A stretch of 64,000 nt of DNA, taken from positions 124,001-188,000 of the forward strand of contig AP026172.1 in the NCBI GenBank assembly GCA_030295235.1, given 5' to 3'. The notes below the pieces were generated by a model. It was given only the letters and a program-made list of their open reading frames with translations. It had not been told where the DNA came from and made no database searches. The first letter of the stretch is position 1. Each line of letters starts with the position of its first letter. Shown here in pieces: positions 8,172 to 14,592 of this stretch. A program made the position numbers and the translations under genes. Origin of the DNA: Fistulifera solaris (taxonomy: Eukaryota).

Positions 8172-8851
8172 TATAGCATAAAGGCCGATAAGTAAGAATA
8201 GCTTACAAGTCGCCCAATTCCGACGAAAAGGCACTCTTTCGACTTGCATGTAAAGCAGCGATTGAGGATTAACCAGTATTAAAAAGGTAGCTTCAAATGC
8301 GAGATAAGTAACAAGAAAGAGGGTACCAGTACCTCCCTCGGAATAATCAACTCGTTTACTTGGCTATCATTTTTGTCGTTTTGCGTTCAAGACTCGGAAT
8401 GGATTTCCAGTCACGCCAAAAGGTCGCCTACATTGTACGACTACAGTGCACGGTGAGCTGCATGATATTCGAAAAGAAACGACGACTGAAAAAGTAAGTA
8501 AGCAGGCCTTGCAAATCGTAGTTTGCTAGAAGTTGAACGCATCTTATTTGTGCAATCTATTTTGATATAGAAGGAACATAGACTACGTCTAACTTCGATA
8601 TCGTGCGGCGTTTTTTTCACTCAACACTCAACCTCCTGTCATTGTTCTGGTTAAAGGGTTAAAGGTTCGTCCAACCGTGTTATCTTTAACCCTAAATAGT
8701 GAGTGAAAGTTATCCCTATCCCTACGAGTTTGGCGTCGATTTCTGAACGCTGCTTTTTATTGTGATTGTAATGCGAGCCAAAGCCAAAAACCTTGTTTAT
8801 GTAGTTTTGAATCCGCAAAAGGGTGGACCATTCCCTTTTAAACTGGGCAAC

Positions 8852-11800
8852 ATGGTTCGAATTTGCTTAGAAGATGAGACTTTCGATGATTCACTCCTCA
8901 ACAATGCCGAGTGGAATGTCTTGGAGACACCCAAACGGCGCAACGTCATACGTGAGCACACCCATCTTCATGAAAAGGAAGAAATAGCCGACGATGAACC
9001 TCTTCATCCTTTGGGATTTTCTTCACCCTCCTCGCAGGATCGAACGCGTTATTCTATGGAGGAAGAAGACGAAGAATCCTTGTTACGGTACAAACTGCAA
9101 TGGGGATATTTAAATGTCCGCAAGAATCAGCATCACCAGGATAAAACCACAGAGTGGATCACATCGAATGCGACGCAACATTATCCACCGTTGTATTCGT
9201 ATTTGGATGCCGAAACAGCTCCCACTTCGGCATTGTTGCGTTACGATTACCAGCAGAAACGTCATCAACAGGATTCTTCATCCGAAGATCCGATGGAGAA
9301 AATTACCATGTTATTGAAAGCATCCTGTGTGATTGTAGATGAAACTACTTTGTTATCACCAATTCGAGAAATTGAATCGATTCAGCAACAAATGATTCTA
9401 CCGCAACATGTACAGCAGCAGCGGGATTCTAAGATTCAACAACGCGTGGAACGCTATCGAGCCAAATTTGCGCGCGAGCAAGAAGAAGCGGCCCAGGCAT
9501 TAGCAAGTCTCTTGCAGCGTCAAGAAGCCAAAGCTCTGGAGATAGAGGAAGAACAGAAGCGATCGCAAGAGGAACAAGAGCGACAACAGCAAGCAGAAGA
9601 AAACGAAAAAAGGATTCAGGAAGCAAAACTGCACGAGCAAAAAGAGGAACAAGCCAGGGCAGCCAAGGAAGCGGCCAAGCAACAGGAAGAGCGACAAAGA
9701 GAAGCTTTGATGCAGAAAAGTCAAGAACCCGAGTACATTGGACGCGCTAAGAAACTTGTAGCCGAATTGGTACAGGTACGAGCATCTGTAGAGTCATTTG
9801 AAACATCCAAGGCAGTCAGCAAGCGGCGACTGGGTGTAAAGAAAGTTGCAAATGGAAAGGTCAATACGTTGACCGAAGATGCAGGCAAGGTTCGCAGTGT
9901 GGCTGCCGAAGTATCACAAGCTATTTCTGTATCAAGGGCCGAAGATGCAGAAGCAAAGCAAAGACTAGAGGCACAGGACCCGTCCGTCTCTGTTGAAATG
10001 ACTCGAGGCAAGCGCTACTTCTTGGACTTTTTATGCAGTAAAGCCATTGTTCGTGCACAGGCAGATGGATTCAATGGGTAAGTAGACACAGAATAATGCG
10101 AAACGGTCGAGTTTGTTTTGTAACTAAATTTATTTTAACAGACAACGCGGGGACGGGTTTCCATTGGCTTGTATGCTAACGCTTGTATCCGTCGACAACA
10201 AAGACATCAATCCGATTCTGGCAGCCCATATCTACACTGTATGTCCCGTGGCCATTCCGACACTTCCATCACCCGCAAAAGATGCTTCCGAAGATGAATT
10301 CATGGAAAGCCTGGGGATGCTCAGGGAGAAGAATGGAGAATTCGAGACGTTTGAAAAGTTTCTTTCACGGACAGAGGTAAGTTGCAAGAATACAAACATT
10401 GTTGTTCGTTAAATCAACGCTCTGACATTGATATTTACAGGGCATTATATCACTTATGGCAAACATAATGTCAGTGCAGCCATCAACGCATACGTTGATG
10501 GGTGGGAATGAAGGAGCAGTGAAATGGCTGTCTCGATTTTTAAAGTTACTCCCCGAAGCGCCAACTGCACCTCTCCCACTTTTAACAGCCCCCGTTCTTG
10601 ATGCATTCTTATCAGGCGCTGGTCATATGCTGGCAAACGTCCACGGGGAACGGTTCCGACAGTATCTTGACCTTATCTCAAATGATATTTTAAGTCGACT
10701 AGATGTTGGACCGATCGGAAAACCATCATCGATACGTTTGAAAAAAGACGATTGAAGGAGGATTTGAGAAATTTAAATCAGAGCTACCATCCAAAGCAAT
10801 TGCAGAGCTCTACCTTGCTGGGAGATCTGCAAGTAGCCAAGCATCGCACATTCTTCCGACACTATCTGTTTCACAGAAACTTATGGGACATTCTCCTTCT
10901 CAGCGACAATCCTCATCTTCATCATGGGCTTCGCCTTTCGGACCAGCAAGTGGACGATCCTCGCAAAGCTCGAATACATTTGGAGGCACATCTAGTACCA
11001 GTAGCAGCAATAGAGCTTCGTTCGGCGGACTCGGCAGCAACCAATCTGCTTTTGGATCCTCGACGACTAGTGGTAACTTACAAAATTCATTTGGAGGCCA
11101 GAACAGCAGTAGTCAGACCAAGTCGCCTTTTGGATTAGTATCCAACACCAAGCAGAGCCCATTCGAAAGTTCCGCAAACACCAACAGCAATCAGTCACCA
11201 TTTAGAGCACCTAGTGCCCAGCCAACGTTCGTCAGCCCTTTCGGCGCGACTAGTGGTAATAACCAATCCCCTTTCGGCGCGGCTACAAATTCGTTCGGAA
11301 ATCACCTCTCGCAGCAAGAGTTCGGCATGGACGAGGATAGCGGAGGATCTGCACAACAATCAGGCGGAATGTTTGGAGGTTCCGCTTCTGCTGCTTCTCC
11401 TTTTGGTAGTTCCAGTTTAGCATTTGGCGCTTCCGCAAATGCTACACCTTTTGGTGAACCGAAAACTGCAAACTCTCCCTTCGGGAATTCTTTTGCTGGG
11501 TCATCGCCATTAGGTGGCACAACATCGGCCCCCTCCATGACGAACTTGAATTCGAAACCCTTTGGCCAGTCATCACCCTTTGGACAATCGAATTCATCTC
11601 CGTTCGGTTCTTCCGGACAATCTGGAGGCGTTTTTGGAGCTGGATCGACATCCTCAACGCCTTTTGGCTCTACTTCGTCATCAAATACCAATCCATTTGG
11701 AGCGCCTTCTCAATCTGGGCCTTTCAACAATGCTGGGCCATTTAACCGACCCATTCATCGTAAAAACAACAATGGAGGTAAATCTATTTGCAAATTTTTT

Positions 11801-11979
11801 GCCCAAGGACGGTGTCGATTTGGCGACAATTGCCGCTTTTCCCACGACACGGGAGGCGGCGGCGGGGAGGAGGCTTTGCTCCAAACAACAATCCTTTCGG
11901 CGGAGGTCAGTCGAATTTTTTTGGAAGTAGCAACAACTCTTTTCAAGCAAACATGCCGTTTGGCGGACCGCGTCGATAA
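8852..11979 (+). CDS. GLE1: mRNA export factor Gle1 with C-terminal FG-repeat region and CCCH zinc finger
   Basis: Coiled coil followed by a Gle1 domain (AHIYTVCPVAIP, FLSRTEGIISL, GAVKWLSRFL, APVLDAFLSGAGHML); introns 10078-10141 and 10377-10440; one-base indel at the A-run 10741-10746 links to SPFG/FG repeats and CKFFAQGRCRFGDNCRFSH. Confidence 0.8.
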
Positions 11980-12060
11980 GTATCGTAATAACTGAAAGAT
12001 TACGGCTACATTACAAACTCTATTTTAAACTTTTAGCATGGTATTTAAACACCATTAACG

Positions 12061-14592
12061 CTAGGGCTCACGAACTGGTATAGGTGTAGCAAGCCCGGAT
12101 AGCTTTTTGAACTGCTGATTAGCTCCGTCGGGATTTTGGATTCCAATCACAGCCATTTTGATGGTCTTGCCGATGGCTTTACCCAATGAACGTTTCGAAA
12201 ATTCGAAAAATACGGGAACTTCTTCCTTCTGTGCAAGGTCCAATATTTCTTGTAGTTTCTCGTCTAATGCACCGTATTCGTCGAGATTGTTGGCCATGAC
12301 CACCATTCGTACCTTGCGTGCTCGAATTCCACGAGCCACCTCCCGCAATCCCATTACGAGACGTCGTTTTGCTTTGGCGTTCTTGTCCTCGGCGGCTCTT
12401 TTCTGTAAGCGCATCAGCTCGGCCAACATTTCCATCAATAGTGGCTTAACTGTCTCATTCTTGGAAAGAATCGCGTAGTGGCGAGGTTGTCCGGAGTTTG
12501 GTATTTTTGGGACACGCTTACACTCAGCAAATCGTTCAGGAATGCGCTTATCCCCCCGAAAACATGGGCTCAATTACGTCGTTGTTCTGGTTGTCATTGA
12601 GCTCCATCTCAGAATCATCTGATCCAGAAGCAGCCGTTACCGATACTGTCTGTCCACCAATTACCATTCCATGAAATCCTGTCAGGGCTTTTTGTTTCTC
12701 TTCCGCGGACGTGTAATGAACCCATATTGTCTGCTCTTCAATATTCGCATCGATTTTCTCCACTACTCCAAATTGTTTGGCCAATTCTTCAATATCTACC
12801 ATACTTTCCTCAAGACAGTCTTCGTCTTCCAAGTCTTCTGTCGTTAAAACGTTACGCAGTACTACTACAAAGTCGTCGCCGTGCAACGATGAAGGTGACT
12901 TATTGACCCGTAGAACCTTCGCCAACAACTGATTACCCGACAACTTTACTTGATTCAGTTGGACGACAATGCGCTTGACGTCAAGCAAATTACCTGTGTA
13001 TTCCAACACGACACGAGGTGGTGATTCCTCTTTTCAACGCGGAGTGTTGCCAAAGGCCCGTAACTTGTCGCCAGCACACGAATATCATTGACACATTCCT
13101 CCAAACATTCATCATCCTCCAAATCATCATCCGTCAACACATTCCATAACCCAATTTCGTGTGATGTATCGGTTTGCGTCAAAGATGCTTGCTTTTCTTG
13201 AAATGCGCGTTCGCACCCTATTCGCCAATCGTCCTCTGTTTCGGATAGCAATCTCGATGTGTCATCCGACGGCGATAATGCCATCACCTGCAATTCCGCC
13301 CCGCCCAAATTTAATCCATTCCAAGCATGCTGCGCTTCCTCCGCCGACTGCGCCGTTTGAAATTGCACATAGACCGGACTCTCTTCTCGCCGCGGTAACC
13401 ATGTACGCTGCACTGTCCCAATTTTCTCGGCCATTTCCTGAAAGTTCTGACACAATTCTTGGTACTCATCATCATCATTGCAATCATCGTCGGCGGTCAG
13501 CCATCCGAGAACAGCAAGTGTCGTAAAGGAGTCCTGTTCTGGTTGCAACTTGTCTGGATTCTTCTGCCGCCATTGCCGCAATCGTTCTTCCAACACTTTT
13601 TTTCTTTAACGGCGAAAATTTCTTCCGTCGTGGTCGTATCCGTTGCCGTCCTTTCTGCGTAACAACCATTTTTCCTTCTTGCATCAGACGCAATAACGCA
13701 TGTTCTTGGCCGAGTGGCAAGTCGTTGGTATTTGAATTTGTTGTATTCTTTCCATTCAGCGCAGTTTGGGTCAAGCTGGTAGTAGTAGTATGCCGTGTCT
13801 TTGGGTGGGGCGGTGGTATCGGGGCGCTGGTTGGCTTATTCTTTGCATCCGACGAAATTGCTTTGGCATTTGTTGATTTGTTGTTGCTATTGTTGTTCGT
13901 CAATGGCGGACCGACAAGTTTCGGAGCGGCAGTAGTAGTTGTCGTGGTGGATGGCAATTTGGAAGCGTAAAACGTTGGAGCCGACGCGTTCAACTTGGTG
14001 GTGGTGGCTGCTATAGGTTTTGTAATTACGGTCGGCTTTGTAGCACTATGACTCGTAGGAGCTTGTAGAGCTGGGAAATCGGTTGCTTTCAATGCACTAA
14101 ATGGTTTTATTACTGGTTTGACCAGCGATGATGATGATGGTGGTGGTTCGTTGAGTGATCGTTTTTGCTTCTTCTTGACATTCTTATCCGGAAGATTATT
14201 GCTGTTGTTGGTCTTGTTGTTGTGATTCGGATTTGTTTGCGGCTTTTGTTTCTTGTTATTCTTATTATTGATATTCGTTTGCTTCTTGTTGTTTGTGTTA
14301 TTATGAACAGCCTTTTTCGGATGTTGCGAAGTATTTGTAGCTTTGTCATTGTTGTTGTGCTTGCTTTCCTGTGTCGTTGTAGTATTACTATTACGAAGAA
14401 GAACCGGCTTTTGTATTCACGCATCGGAGCACTTGCGGCTACACGATCCCATCCACTTCCTTGCGCCCAGGCGTTCTTGTTGATGTTGTTAGAATTTGCC
14501 GCCGTAATGTTCGGTTGCGAATGGTGATAATTACTGGAGGACGGTGCTGCGGAATCTGAATTTGTCGGTAGATGCTGTTGTTGTGACATCAT
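12061..14592 (-). CDS. SECISBP2: SECIS-binding protein 2 (SBP2)-like protein with three UHM/RRM domains
   Basis: C-terminal L7Ae module KAKRRLVMGLREV...KRSLGKAIGKTIKMAVIGIQNPDGA; K-rich SID-like KGRQRIRPRRKKFSPLKKK-VLEER; PAM2-like KLNASAPTF; ORFs joined across homopolymer indels. Confidence 0.8.

What the first reader, a model, noticed from the sequence alone, without database searches (positions are those of the whole stretch)
8852..11979. Gle1 apparently fused to a Nup42-like FG-repeat and CCCH tail
Removing one A from the run at 10741-10746 makes the Gle1 domain read on without a stop (...IRLKKTIEGGFEKFKSELPSKAIAELYL...) into ~330 aa of SPFG/FG repeats and a CCCH finger. In yeast and humans Gle1 lacks FG repeats and binds the separate FG nucleoporin Nup42/NUPL2, whose human form carries a CCCH finger. 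A single Gle1-FG-CCCH chain would be a Rosetta-stone fusion of the cytoplasmic mRNA export platform. The CCCH is C-terminal here, unlike in NUPL2.
Basis: partly seen in the sequence, partly recalled or inferred. Interest (0 to 1): 0.72.

Follow-up and report, generated by a model that had tools for sequence, protein, structure and literature searches.

The report
Diatom Gle1 carrying Nup42-like tail
This is one diatom gene in which the mRNA-export factor Gle1 runs straight on into the FG repeats and zinc finger that yeast and humans keep on a separate nuclear-pore partner (Nup42); the two breaks in its reading frame are most likely one-base errors of this assembly.

Summary
The A-run, the stop at 10753-10755 and the +1-frame FG/CCCH reading are all there, plus a second one-base break at the G-run 11864-11867 that the finding does not mention.

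The three window frames match a deposited 999-aa Fistulifera solaris protein (P0077, GAX14625.1) residue for residue: 1-589, 588-962 and 963-999. So the window is that gene with two homopolymer indels. Read contigs of the sister copy are in frame at both sites.

The architecture is coiled coil, Gle1 C-terminal domain (CTD), about 320 aa of FG repeats, one or two CCCH fingers, then a short FG end (mostly ...PFGGPRR). It recurs across pennate and centric diatoms: 69 of 76 and 65 of 81 hits in two searches.

The likely role is inferred. The covalent FG tail would hold Mex67/NXF1-bound mRNPs next to Gle1-Dbp5, as non-covalently docked Nup42 does elsewhere. An engineered yeast Gle1-Nup42FG chimera reportedly works.

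Descent of the tail from Nup42 is not shown. No Gle1-binding motif was detected, the domain order is reversed, and the only Nup42 signal is a weak lead.

My searches found no paper describing it. This scan already reported the same fusion on the sister copy (e1-7530076). It is a new variant of a known kind, of moderate interest.

The parts
8852..10077 (+). Exon 1: disordered N-terminus with the conserved motif E-P-x-H-P-L-G-F (residues 49-56), the long coiled coil (about residues 185-329) and the start of the Gle1 C-terminal domain (CTD)
   Evidence: The spliced window model is identical to P0077 residues 1-589. The AF2 model has helix 185-318. G55 and F56 are nearly invariant in 78 homologues.
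10078..10141 (+). Intron 1 (GT..AG, 64 nt)
   Evidence: Boundaries read. Removing it restores ...DGFNG|QRGDGFPL... as in P0077.
10142..10376 (+). Exon 2: middle of the Gle1 CTD
   Evidence: Pfam GLE1 PF07817, E 3.1e-09, profile positions 98-168. Identical to P0077.
10377..10440 (+). Intron 2 (GT..AG, 64 nt)
   Evidence: Boundaries read. The junction ...SRTE|GIISLMAN... matches P0077.
10441..11979 (+). Exon 3: end of the Gle1 CTD, FG-repeat region, CCCH finger, short FG end and stop codon. In the window it is broken by two one-base homopolymer indels.
   Evidence: Window frames match P0077 1-589, 588-962 and 963-999 at 100%.
10741..10746 (+). A-run, one A longer than in the deposited coding sequence and in the read contigs. 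It creates the false stop at 10753-10755.
   Evidence: table 4: 1 letter left out at 10741 (depth 27.6 of 27.6). P0077 reads L-K-K-T-I-E here. Human GLE1 aligns across the site.
11864..11867 (+). G-run, one G shorter than in the deposited coding sequence and in the read contigs. This is the second frame break.
   Evidence: table 4: G put in behind 11863 (depth 17.3 of 17.3). P0077 has eight Gly then FAPNNN.
9839..10822 (+). Gle1 CTD (P0077 residues about 330-614, across both introns). This is the domain that activates Dbp5/DDX19 in studied species.
   Evidence: PF07817. phmmer to human GLE1 6b4f_B/7tbl_e, E 3.7e-09. AF2 pLDDT >90 over about 300-610. Foldseek 6b4i_A E 2.7e-10 with TM(target) 0.75, and 3rrn_B with TM(target) 0.80.
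10823..11770 (+). FG-repeat region (P0077 about 615-930), SPFG/PFG type, poor in charged residues, predicted disordered
   Evidence: 25 FG in the tail after residue 614, and 13 charged residues among the 271 of 650-920. pLDDT <50. 5-40 FG in the tails of 78 homologues.
11786..11848 (+). CCCH (C-x8-C-x5-C-x3-H) zinc finger
   Evidence: zf-CCCH_4 E 7.9e-12 and zf-CCCH E 2.4e-07. pLDDT 77-89. C937, C945, C951 and H955 are nearly invariant. 100% identical between the two gene copies.
11849..11976 (+). Gly-run and short FG end, finishing in the conserved ...PFGGPRR
   Evidence: The third frame is identical to the last 37 residues of P0077. 57 of 78 homologues end in -RR, 43 of them in GPRR.

Best explanation
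One intact nuclear gene of a pennate diatom (three exons, 999 codons) encodes a Gle1 that carries its own FG nucleoporin tail.

Shown:
- The protein has a disordered N-terminus, a long coiled coil, the Gle1 CTD, about 320 aa of SPFG/PFG repeats, one CCCH finger and a 44-aa FG end finishing in PFGGPRR.
- The window's two frame breaks are one-base homopolymer length differences from an independent deposit of the same gene copy.
- The same architecture is conserved across pennate and centric diatoms.

Inferred, from yeast and human work:
- The covalently attached FG repeats bind the export receptor (Mex67-Mtr2 / NXF1-NXT1) on emerging mRNPs and so place them next to Gle1-Dbp5 for remodelling. Elsewhere this job falls to the FG domain of Nup42, which is held on Gle1 non-covalently by its Gle1-binding motif.
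- The CCCH finger at the distal end of the tether probably contacts RNA.
- Counted outward from the Gle1 CTD, the order anchor, FG, CCCH is the same as in docked Nup42 (N-CCCH-FG-GBM-C; this order is recalled, not tested). Only the chain polarity differs.

The frame breaks are most likely assembly errors, not biology.
For: Gene and frame:
- Window frames equal P0077 (GAX14625.1, named 'mRNA export factor GLE1' by UniRef) at 100% over 1-589, 588-962 and 963-999. A one-base skip cannot be an intron, so the deposit's DNA must have A5 and G5.
- Both differences are homopolymer lengths.
- One search lists exactly two indels over 3.8 kb, at these two sites, and all depth there carries them (27.6 of 27.6; 17.3 of 17.3).
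- Human GLE1 aligns across the A-run site (SSIRLKKTIEGG against SFIRLKQFLEKC).
- The AF2 model puts the break inside helix 581-591. Helix 594-600 and the confident stretch to about 611 follow it, with P603 and Y611 invariant.

Conservation:
- 69 of 76 hits to exon 3 also carry a CCCH family.
- 65 of 81 hits to the CTD carry GLE1 plus CCCH.
- 14 of 15 divergent representatives carry both.
- Named sources span Naviculales to Chaetocerotales.
- Records bearing MMETSP transcriptome ids hold both domains in one ORF (P0057, P0099, P0114).
- Between the two gene copies, identity is 96.5% in the CTD, 100% in the CCCH and 87.3% in the FG tail with 0 gaps.

Fold: Foldseek matches Gle1 CTD structures (6b4i_A E 2.7e-10; 3rrn_B TM(target) 0.80).

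Mechanism, from papers:
- Nup42 and Nup159 FG domains are proposed to bind Mex67-Mtr2 and position the mRNP for Dbp5 (PMC7553267, passages).
[quoted passage not shown] Gle1' (review PMC9132428, passage).
Against: - No RNA data for this organism were available, so a single transcript is shown only for relatives.
- The contigs that carry the two indels belong, by their other differences (record 5 has 21 other letters in 252), to the sister copy. No contig of the window's own copy is listed across either site (28 pieces not shown). For the window's own copy the case therefore rests on the deposited protein and on conservation.
- All functional steps are transferred from yeast and human: Dbp5 activation, receptor binding by the FG tail, RNA binding by the finger.
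- Homology of the tail to Nup42 is not shown. No Gle1-binding motif was found. The Pfam copy at hand lacks the Nup42 families named by the Atlas. The Atlas scores of 0.77-0.80 are in the range that shuffled proteins reach a third of the time.
Confidence: 0.85

Rival explanations
1. There are two adjacent genes: a Gle1 ending at the TGA 10753-10755, and a separate CCCH-FG nucleoporin starting at ATG 10883.
For: The window as assembled has the stop, and an in-frame ATG lies 128 nt downstream. The Pfam GLE1 profile is already matched to position 249 of 250 before the A-run.
Against: The deposited protein of the same gene copy reads through. Homology to human GLE1 and the confident fold continue about 20 residues past the break. 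The sister copy and dozens of diatom orthologues, including transcriptome-derived ones, are single ORFs. The search for short stand-alone relatives of the tail found 7 proteins: 6 begin inside the Gle1 CTD and 1 is an unrelated multi-CCCH protein.
Confidence: 0.03
2. The frameshifts are real. This copy of a duplicated (two-subgenome) gene is decaying into a pseudogene in the sequenced strain, while the sister copy does the work.
For: Read contigs show two copies about 8% apart at similar depth (40 of 475 letters; depths 18.7 and 15.7), so one copy could be dispensable. No listed contig of the window's own copy spans either break.
Against: Apart from the two homopolymer lengths, the window encodes P0077 without a single amino-acid difference in 999 residues. 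Two independent frameshifts and nothing else would be an odd pattern of decay. Notes of this scan report look-alike frameshifts judged to be assembly errors in three other genes of this genome (AI notes, not rechecked here).
Confidence: 0.07
3. Programmed frameshifting or transcriptional slippage at the A-run (and at the G-run) joins the frames.
For: Homopolymer runs are classic slippage sites (general knowledge). The window sequence is compatible with this.
Against: It would need two separate events of opposite sign. The deposited sequence, the sister copy and all orthologues examined encode the chain in one frame.
Confidence: 0.01
4. The chain is single, but the tail is not derived from Nup42. 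Diatom Gle1 acquired FG repeats and a generic RNA-binding CCCH finger independently, and a separate Nup42 may still exist.
For: The domain order is Gle1-FG-CCCH, not the Gle1-CCCH-FG-GBM that a simple downstream fusion would give. No match to the Nup42 Gle1-binding-motif chains appears among 18 PDB hits at E<=10, which are all CCCH fingers of TTP, CPSF30, CWC2 and the like. FG repeats arise easily (general knowledge).
Against: Atlas feature search of residues 905-999: 6 of the 7 rows shown are clusters carrying Amo1_N (PF27634), and 2 of those also carry NUP42_C (PF27899). These come from plants, chordates, arthropods and fungi (scores 0.77-0.80, a lead only). No stand-alone CCCH-FG protein surfaced, though that search was shallow, with 31 candidates.
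Confidence: 0.3

Closest known systems
Gle1 of human and yeast (CTD structures 6B4F/6B4I, 3RRN, 6B4E)
   Same: Both have a coiled coil followed by a helical CTD. Matches: PF07817, phmmer E 3.7e-09 to human GLE1, Foldseek TM(target) 0.75-0.80. Homology runs to the very end of the human CTD.
   Different: The human and yeast proteins end at the CTD. The diatom protein continues for 264-566 residues of FG repeats, with one or two CCCH fingers. In the Atlas, 26 of the 30 nearest named clusters to the CTD carry GLE1 as their only family.
Nup42 / NUPL2 / hCG1 / Amo1 (CCCH-FG nucleoporin that docks on the Gle1 CTD)
   Same: Both have FG repeats plus a CCCH finger held next to the Gle1 CTD. Per PMC5998080, Nup42 anchors FG repeats proximal to Gle1. 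Atlas lead to Amo1_N/NUP42_C clusters.
   Different: Nup42 is a separate polypeptide held by a C-terminal Gle1-binding motif; here the link is covalent and no such motif was detected. The finger is near the C-terminus here and N-terminal in human NUP42 (the latter recalled, not tested). The diatom end motif PFGGPRR has no counterpart known to me.
Engineered yeast Gle1-Nup42FG chimera (Adams, Terry and Wente 2014, Genetics; known to me only through a passage of review PMC9132428; the paper itself is not held)
   Same: An FG domain attached to the C-terminus of Gle1. It is reported to rescue the mRNP-remodelling defect of nup42dFG nup159dFG. The diatom protein is the natural equivalent.
   Different: It is artificial, uses the yeast Nup42 FG domain, and has no CCCH finger (yeast Nup42 lacks one; recalled).
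Deposited diatom proteins: GAX14625.1 and GAX24822.1 (Fistulifera solaris), and JGI records named 'GLE1-like protein/CCCH-type zinc finger'
   Same: GAX14625.1 (P0077) is this very gene product. The domain pair is already machine-annotated in public records.
   Different: Only automatic names exist. Eight full-text paper searches and five papers searched by passage for these terms, plus two further papers read by passage or named sections for the mechanism, turned up no description of the fusion.

Membership tests
Gle1 (mRNA export factor, PF07817) | Sequence match to the GLE1 domain profile | tested here: met
   Window exon 2 E 3.1e-09 (36.9 bits, cutoff 24). Exon 3 E 0.0017 (18.2 bits, piece alone under the cutoff). 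Full-length relatives score 44-96 bits.
Gle1 (mRNA export factor, PF07817) | Helical CTD fold as in solved Gle1 structures | tested here: met
   AF2 model of P0077 has pLDDT >90 over about 300-610. Foldseek: 6b4i_A E 2.7e-10, 3rrn_B TM(target) 0.80, 6b4e_A, 9lt9.
Gle1 (mRNA export factor, PF07817) | Coiled coil N-terminal to the CTD (self-association region) | tested here: met
   Continuous helix 185-318 in the model. Its function was not tested.
Gle1 (mRNA export factor, PF07817) | Binds and activates Dbp5/DDX19; IP6 pocket | tested here: inconclusive
   Binding was not tested. Of the four IP6-pocket positions listed in PMC5998080, two fall inside the human alignment. Human E482 aligns with K397, which varies among diatoms. 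Human H523 aligns with the invariant H438, so diatoms are human-like there.
Nup42 / NUPL2 / Amo1 | FG-repeat region | tested here: met
   25 FG in the tail after residue 614. 5-40 FG in the tails of 78 homologues. Nucleoporin_FG PF13634 gives sub-threshold hits in two relatives.
Nup42 / NUPL2 / Amo1 | CCCH zinc finger of the Nup42 type (Pfam Amo1_N, PF27634) | tested here: inconclusive
   A CCCH finger is present. The Pfam copy at hand returned no PF27634 hit and probably lacks the model. Atlas feature search: 6 of the 7 rows shown carry Amo1_N, at scores 0.77-0.80, below the 0.9 bar. Its position is near the C-terminus, not N-terminal.
Nup42 / NUPL2 / Amo1 | C-terminal Gle1-binding motif (NUP42_C, PF27899) | tested here: not met
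   No Nup42 chain among the PDB hits of P0077 at E<=0.01 (3 hits) or of tail residues 588-960 at E<=10 (18 hits). The tail outside the finger is modelled as disordered, pLDDT <50. The PF27899 profile itself could not be run.
Nup42 / NUPL2 / Amo1 | Separate polypeptide that docks non-covalently on the Gle1 CTD | tested here: not met
   Here it is the same chain as Gle1. Hence the claim is 'works like Nup42', not 'is a Nup42'.

The most novel reading that the evidence does not exclude
Diatoms have no separate Nup42 at all. The whole Gle1-Nup42 module has become one polypeptide in which the covalent link has made the Gle1-binding motif dispensable. The distal CCCH finger (duplicated in many centric diatoms) is an integral RNA-handling part of the export platform, passing the mRNA to Dbp5. 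The near-invariant C-terminal ...PFGGPRR is a new docking signal. If so, diatoms offer a natural, genetically tractable test of what the unexplained Nup42 zinc finger does, and of whether Gle1 CTD stability needs a Gle1-binding motif.
Probability: 0.3. Interest if true: 0.6.

Novelty: new variant of a known kind. Interest (0 to 1): 0.45.

Why it matters
[quoted passage not shown] In yeast and humans, Nup42 is held on Gle1 by a small docking motif. It stabilises Gle1 and places FG repeats beside it.

A whole algal phylum that writes Gle1, FG repeats and a CCCH finger as one chain is natural support for the idea that the point of the Gle1-Nup42 contact is to tether FG repeats, and a finger of unknown role, next to the Dbp5 activator. 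It mirrors an engineered yeast chimera. It also points to the CCCH finger as a conserved working part, not an accessory.

It does not reveal a new interaction, so the value is confirmatory and comparative. Practically, it shows that this assembly carries homopolymer indels that split real genes, so gene callers need care here.

Tried and rejected
- **Whole genome:** none is held for this window, so I could not search this genome for a separate Nup42.
- **RNA evidence:** no RNA holder is listed. The four runs laid cover the introns without joints and behave like DNA, so they say nothing on transcripts.
- **Range beyond diatoms:** not reached.
  - The word-based searches returned only diatom-named or unnamed records.
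  - The exhaustive HMMER search with a 205-aa diatom CTD fragment (P0010) gave 227 hits at E<=0.001, but only the best 150 are listed. All of these are 44-100% identical and diatom-like, and the weaker 77 were not visible.
  - Cluster look-ups named only diatoms.
- **Stand-alone Nup42 in diatoms:** the search with tail residues 920-999 among shorter proteins gave 31 candidates and 7 hits. Six are fragments that begin inside the Gle1 CTD and one is an unrelated multi-CCCH protein. This search is too shallow to show absence.
- **Direct comparison with Nup42 fingers:** not possible, because no Nup42 full-length sequence came out of any tool. My recollection that the human NUP42 finger is similar is untested.
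- **Gle1-binding motif in the tail:** no sequence match. The full-length AF2 model gives no confident docked segment in the tail, but the tool returns no contacts.
- **Complex prediction:** not run. I do not claim that the tail binds the CTD, and the monomer model gave no candidate segment.
- **IP6 pocket:** only two of four positions could be mapped, so this is inconclusive.
- **Adams et al. 2014:** not held. It is cited only through a review passage.
- **Supplements:** the supplementary notes of PMC5998080, which list the Gle1-Nup42 interface residues, were not opened. They bear on whether the docking surface is kept in diatoms.
Full report
**What is in the sequence**

On the + strand an ORF starts at ATG 8852 and, as assembled, ends at TGA 10753-10755 just after an A6 run at 10741-10746. 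Two short GT..AG introns (10078-10141 and 10377-10440) interrupt it.

The +1 frame opens at 10742 and reads KKTIEGGFEKFKSELPSKAIAELYL... It continues into an S/G/F/N-rich region with 25 FG dipeptides and a C-x8-C-x5-C-x3-H finger. Pfam scores the finger as zf-CCCH_4, E 7.9e-12.

Just after the finger the frame breaks a second time, at the G-run 11864-11867. A third frame then carries ...GGGFAPNNNPFGG...PFGGPRR to the stop at 11977-11979. The finding's coordinates are therefore the true gene ends. Its description is right, but it misses the second break and the introns.

**The frame breaks**

A public protein, P0077 (999 aa), surfaced as a member of the cluster of the best hit. It is GAX14625.1, 'hypothetical protein FisN_6Lh409' of Fistulifera solaris, named 'mRNA export factor GLE1' by UniRef.

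With the introns removed, the window's three frames are identical to P0077 over residues 1-589, 588-962 and 963-999. There is not one amino-acid difference in 999 residues. A one-base skip cannot be an intron, so the DNA behind that deposit must have A5 and G5 where the window has A6 and G4.

The second cluster member, P0001 (993 aa, FisN_6Hh409), is the sister copy and also reads through. Identity between the two copies by region:

| Region | Identity |
|---|---|
| N-terminus | 83.2% |
| Gle1 CTD | 96.5% |
| FG tail | 87.3%, no gaps |
| CCCH finger | 100% |

Contigs of four coded public runs were laid on 8500-12300.
- They show two sequence versions at similar depth. One is identical to the window. 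The other is about 8% different (40 of 475 letters, 21 of 252, 24 of 313).
- They list exactly two indels: one letter left out at 10741 (depth 27.6 of 27.6) and a G put in behind 11863 (17.3 of 17.3).
- The listed contig across 10741 is the divergent version. So the reads directly show the sister copy in frame.
- No listed contig of the window's own version spans either site, and 28 pieces were not shown.

For the window's own copy the case rests on three things: the deposit, the homopolymer nature of both differences, and conservation. Notes of this scan say that look-alike frameshifts in three other genes of this genome were judged assembly errors (AI notes, not rechecked by me). I put about 0.9 on assembly error, about 0.07 on a truly broken copy, and almost nothing on two genes or on programmed slippage.

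**The first break lies inside the Gle1 domain**

The Pfam GLE1 profile ends just before the A-run. However, phmmer aligns human GLE1 (6b4f_B, 7tbl_e; E 3.7e-09) across the break: SSIRLKKTIEGG against SFIRLKQFLEKC, at chain position 297 of 317.

An AlphaFold2 model of P0077, built on 78 homologues, has pLDDT above 90 from about 300 to 610. It places the break inside helix 581-591, followed by helix 594-600 and a confident stretch to about 611. P603 and Y611 are invariant across the 78 sequences.

Foldseek matches the model to Gle1 CTD structures: 6b4i_A at E 2.7e-10 with TM(target) 0.75, 3rrn_B with TM(target) 0.80, plus 6b4e_A and 9lt9. The product truncated at ...KKDD would lack the end of the fold.

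**The fusion is a diatom-wide architecture**

- Searching with exon 3 among longer proteins gave 76 hits, and 69 of them also carry a CCCH family.
  - I read five of the seven that do not. P0010 and P0007 end just after the CTD. P0021 and P0048 are cut within the FG region. P0030 runs into unrelated sequence.
  - The other two, P0049 and P0064, are labelled partial.
- Searching with the CTD (residues 330-615) gave 81 hits: 65 with GLE1 plus CCCH, 15 with GLE1 only (mostly 550-680-aa pieces covering about 55% of the query) and 1 with CCCH only.
- 14 of 15 of the more divergent long representatives from an exhaustive HMMER search have both domains.
- All named sources are diatoms:
  - Pennate: Fistulifera, Mayamaea, Seminavis, Epithemia, Nitzschia, Pseudo-nitzschia, Cylindrotheca, Amphora, Amphiprora.
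  - Centric: Skeletonema, Thalassiosira, Cyclotella, Cyclostephanos, Ditylum, Chaetoceros, Attheya.
- Records with MMETSP transcriptome identifiers hold both domains in one ORF (P0057, P0099, P0114).

I aligned 78 long homologues. I chose them as long hits that had a CCCH by Pfam, so the presence of a finger in them is by selection. In this set:
- 43 have one finger and 35 have two.
- The tail after the CTD is 264-566 aa (median 410).
- Tails hold 5-40 FG dipeptides (median 26.5).
- 57 end in -RR, 43 of them in GPRR.

I could not see beyond diatoms. The word-based searches and the top 150 of 227 HMMER hits all stay within diatom-like sequences. As a weak outside check, 26 of the 30 nearest named Atlas clusters to the CTD carry GLE1 as their only family.

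**Is the tail Nup42?**

It works like one on paper, with FG repeats plus a CCCH finger held at the Gle1 CTD.

An Atlas feature search with residues 905-999 returned seven rows. Six are clusters carrying Amo1_N (PF27634), and two of those also carry NUP42_C (PF27899). They come from plants, chordates, arthropods and fungi. The scores are 0.77-0.80, which the tool itself rates as a lead only.

Against membership:
- No match to the solved Nup42 Gle1-binding motifs (3 PDB hits at E<=0.01 for the whole protein; 18 hits at E<=10 for the tail, all CCCH fingers of TTP, CPSF30, CWC2 and similar).
- The tail outside the finger is modelled as disordered.
- The finger lies at the distal end, not the N-terminus.
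- It is not a separate polypeptide.

The search for short stand-alone relatives of the tail found only fragments that start inside the CTD (6 of 7) and one unrelated protein. It was shallow, with 31 candidates.

So I file the protein as a Gle1 with a Nup42-like tail, not as a Nup42. Whether the tail came from a Nup42 gene or was built independently stays open (about 0.3 for independent origin). A simple downstream fusion would give Gle1-CCCH-FG-GBM, which is not what is seen.

One inference of mine: counted outward from the Gle1 CTD, the order anchor, FG, CCCH is the same in docked Nup42 (N-CCCH-FG-GBM-C; recalled) as in the diatom chain. For a disordered tether, that order is what should matter.

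**How it most likely works (inferred)**

[quoted passage not shown] Gle1'. That is Adams et al. 2014, which is not held.

The diatom protein is the natural form of that chimera. The CTD would activate Dbp5, the covalent FG tail would capture receptor-bound mRNPs beside it, and the finger probably touches RNA. None of this was tested here. The same review notes that hCG1 FG regions bind few export factors, which is a caution.

**Novelty**

The proteins are deposited and machine-annotated, for example as JGI 'GLE1-like protein/CCCH-type zinc finger'.

Eight full-text searches found no description of the fusion. Nor did the five papers I searched by passage for these terms:
- PMC1257468.
- PMC2951903, which lists Gle1 as present in the two diatoms surveyed and does not treat CG1/Nup42.
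- PMC8421043.
- PMC9132428.
- PMC3032688, which scored Gle1 as missing outside opisthokonts.

PMC5998080 and PMC7553267 were read for the mechanism only.

This scan already reported the same fusion on another piece of this genome (e1-7530076), presumably the sister copy. That follow-up reached the same reading, and I confirmed it independently here.

**Verdict**

- Observation: confirmed.
- First reading: supported.
- The frame breaks are an assembly artefact.
- The thing itself is a real, conserved and so far undescribed variant of a well-known module.
- Interest is moderate: it corroborates known biology more than it opens new biology.

Noticed in passing
window 11864-11867: A second one-base frame break (G-run one G short), not mentioned in the finding. 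Together with the A-run it suggests that this assembly carries homopolymer indels that split genes.
   Followed up: yes
window 8996-9019 (P0077 residues 49-56): A short N-terminal motif E-P-(P/L)-H-P-L-G-F is conserved in diatom Gle1 (G55 and F56 nearly invariant in 78 sequences) inside an otherwise disordered region. It could be a pore-anchoring motif. In humans the Gle1 N-terminus binds Nup155 (known to me only from the title of reference B60 seen).
   Followed up: no
window 11956-11976; homologues in alignment A2: The extreme C-terminus ...PFGGPRR is strikingly conserved: 57 of 78 homologues end in -RR and 43 in GPRR. The most divergent members end in FG-x-W/Y-R or -W instead. Its function is unknown, and it is modelled as disordered.
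   Followed up: partly
alignment A2 (homologues): 35 of 78 long homologues have two CCCH fingers in the tail. These are mostly centric-diatom-like sequences such as Skeletonema, Thalassiosira and Chaetoceros. In some (P0118, P0011) the first finger lies close to the CTD with most FG repeats after it.
   Followed up: partly
P0144 (519 aa, unnamed metagenome protein): A Gle1-CTD protein (about 50% identical to the diatom CTD) has no coiled coil and no FG/CCCH tail. It ends instead in a P-rich then Y/N/Q-rich repeat. It may be a paralogue or a non-diatom relative. No taxon name is available.
   Followed up: partly
window 8500-12300: Read contigs show two versions of the locus about 8% apart at similar depth. 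They match two deposited proteins named ...6Lh409 and ...6Hh409, which indicates a genome with two diverged copies of this region.
   Followed up: partly
window 12064-12573 (- strand): A convergent neighbour gene with an L7Ae/L30e/S12e/Gadd45-family domain (PF01248, E 1.3e-12). Its ORF ends about 85 nt from the Gle1 stop. The further minus-strand ORFs at 12551-13605 had no Pfam hit.
   Followed up: partly
P0077 K397 and H438 (window exon 1 about 10040-10042; exon 2 about 10163-10165): At two of the four IP6-pocket positions that differ between fungi and metazoa (PMC5998080), the diatom has a variable Lys and an invariant His (human-like). IP6 dependence of diatom Gle1 is open.
   Followed up: partly
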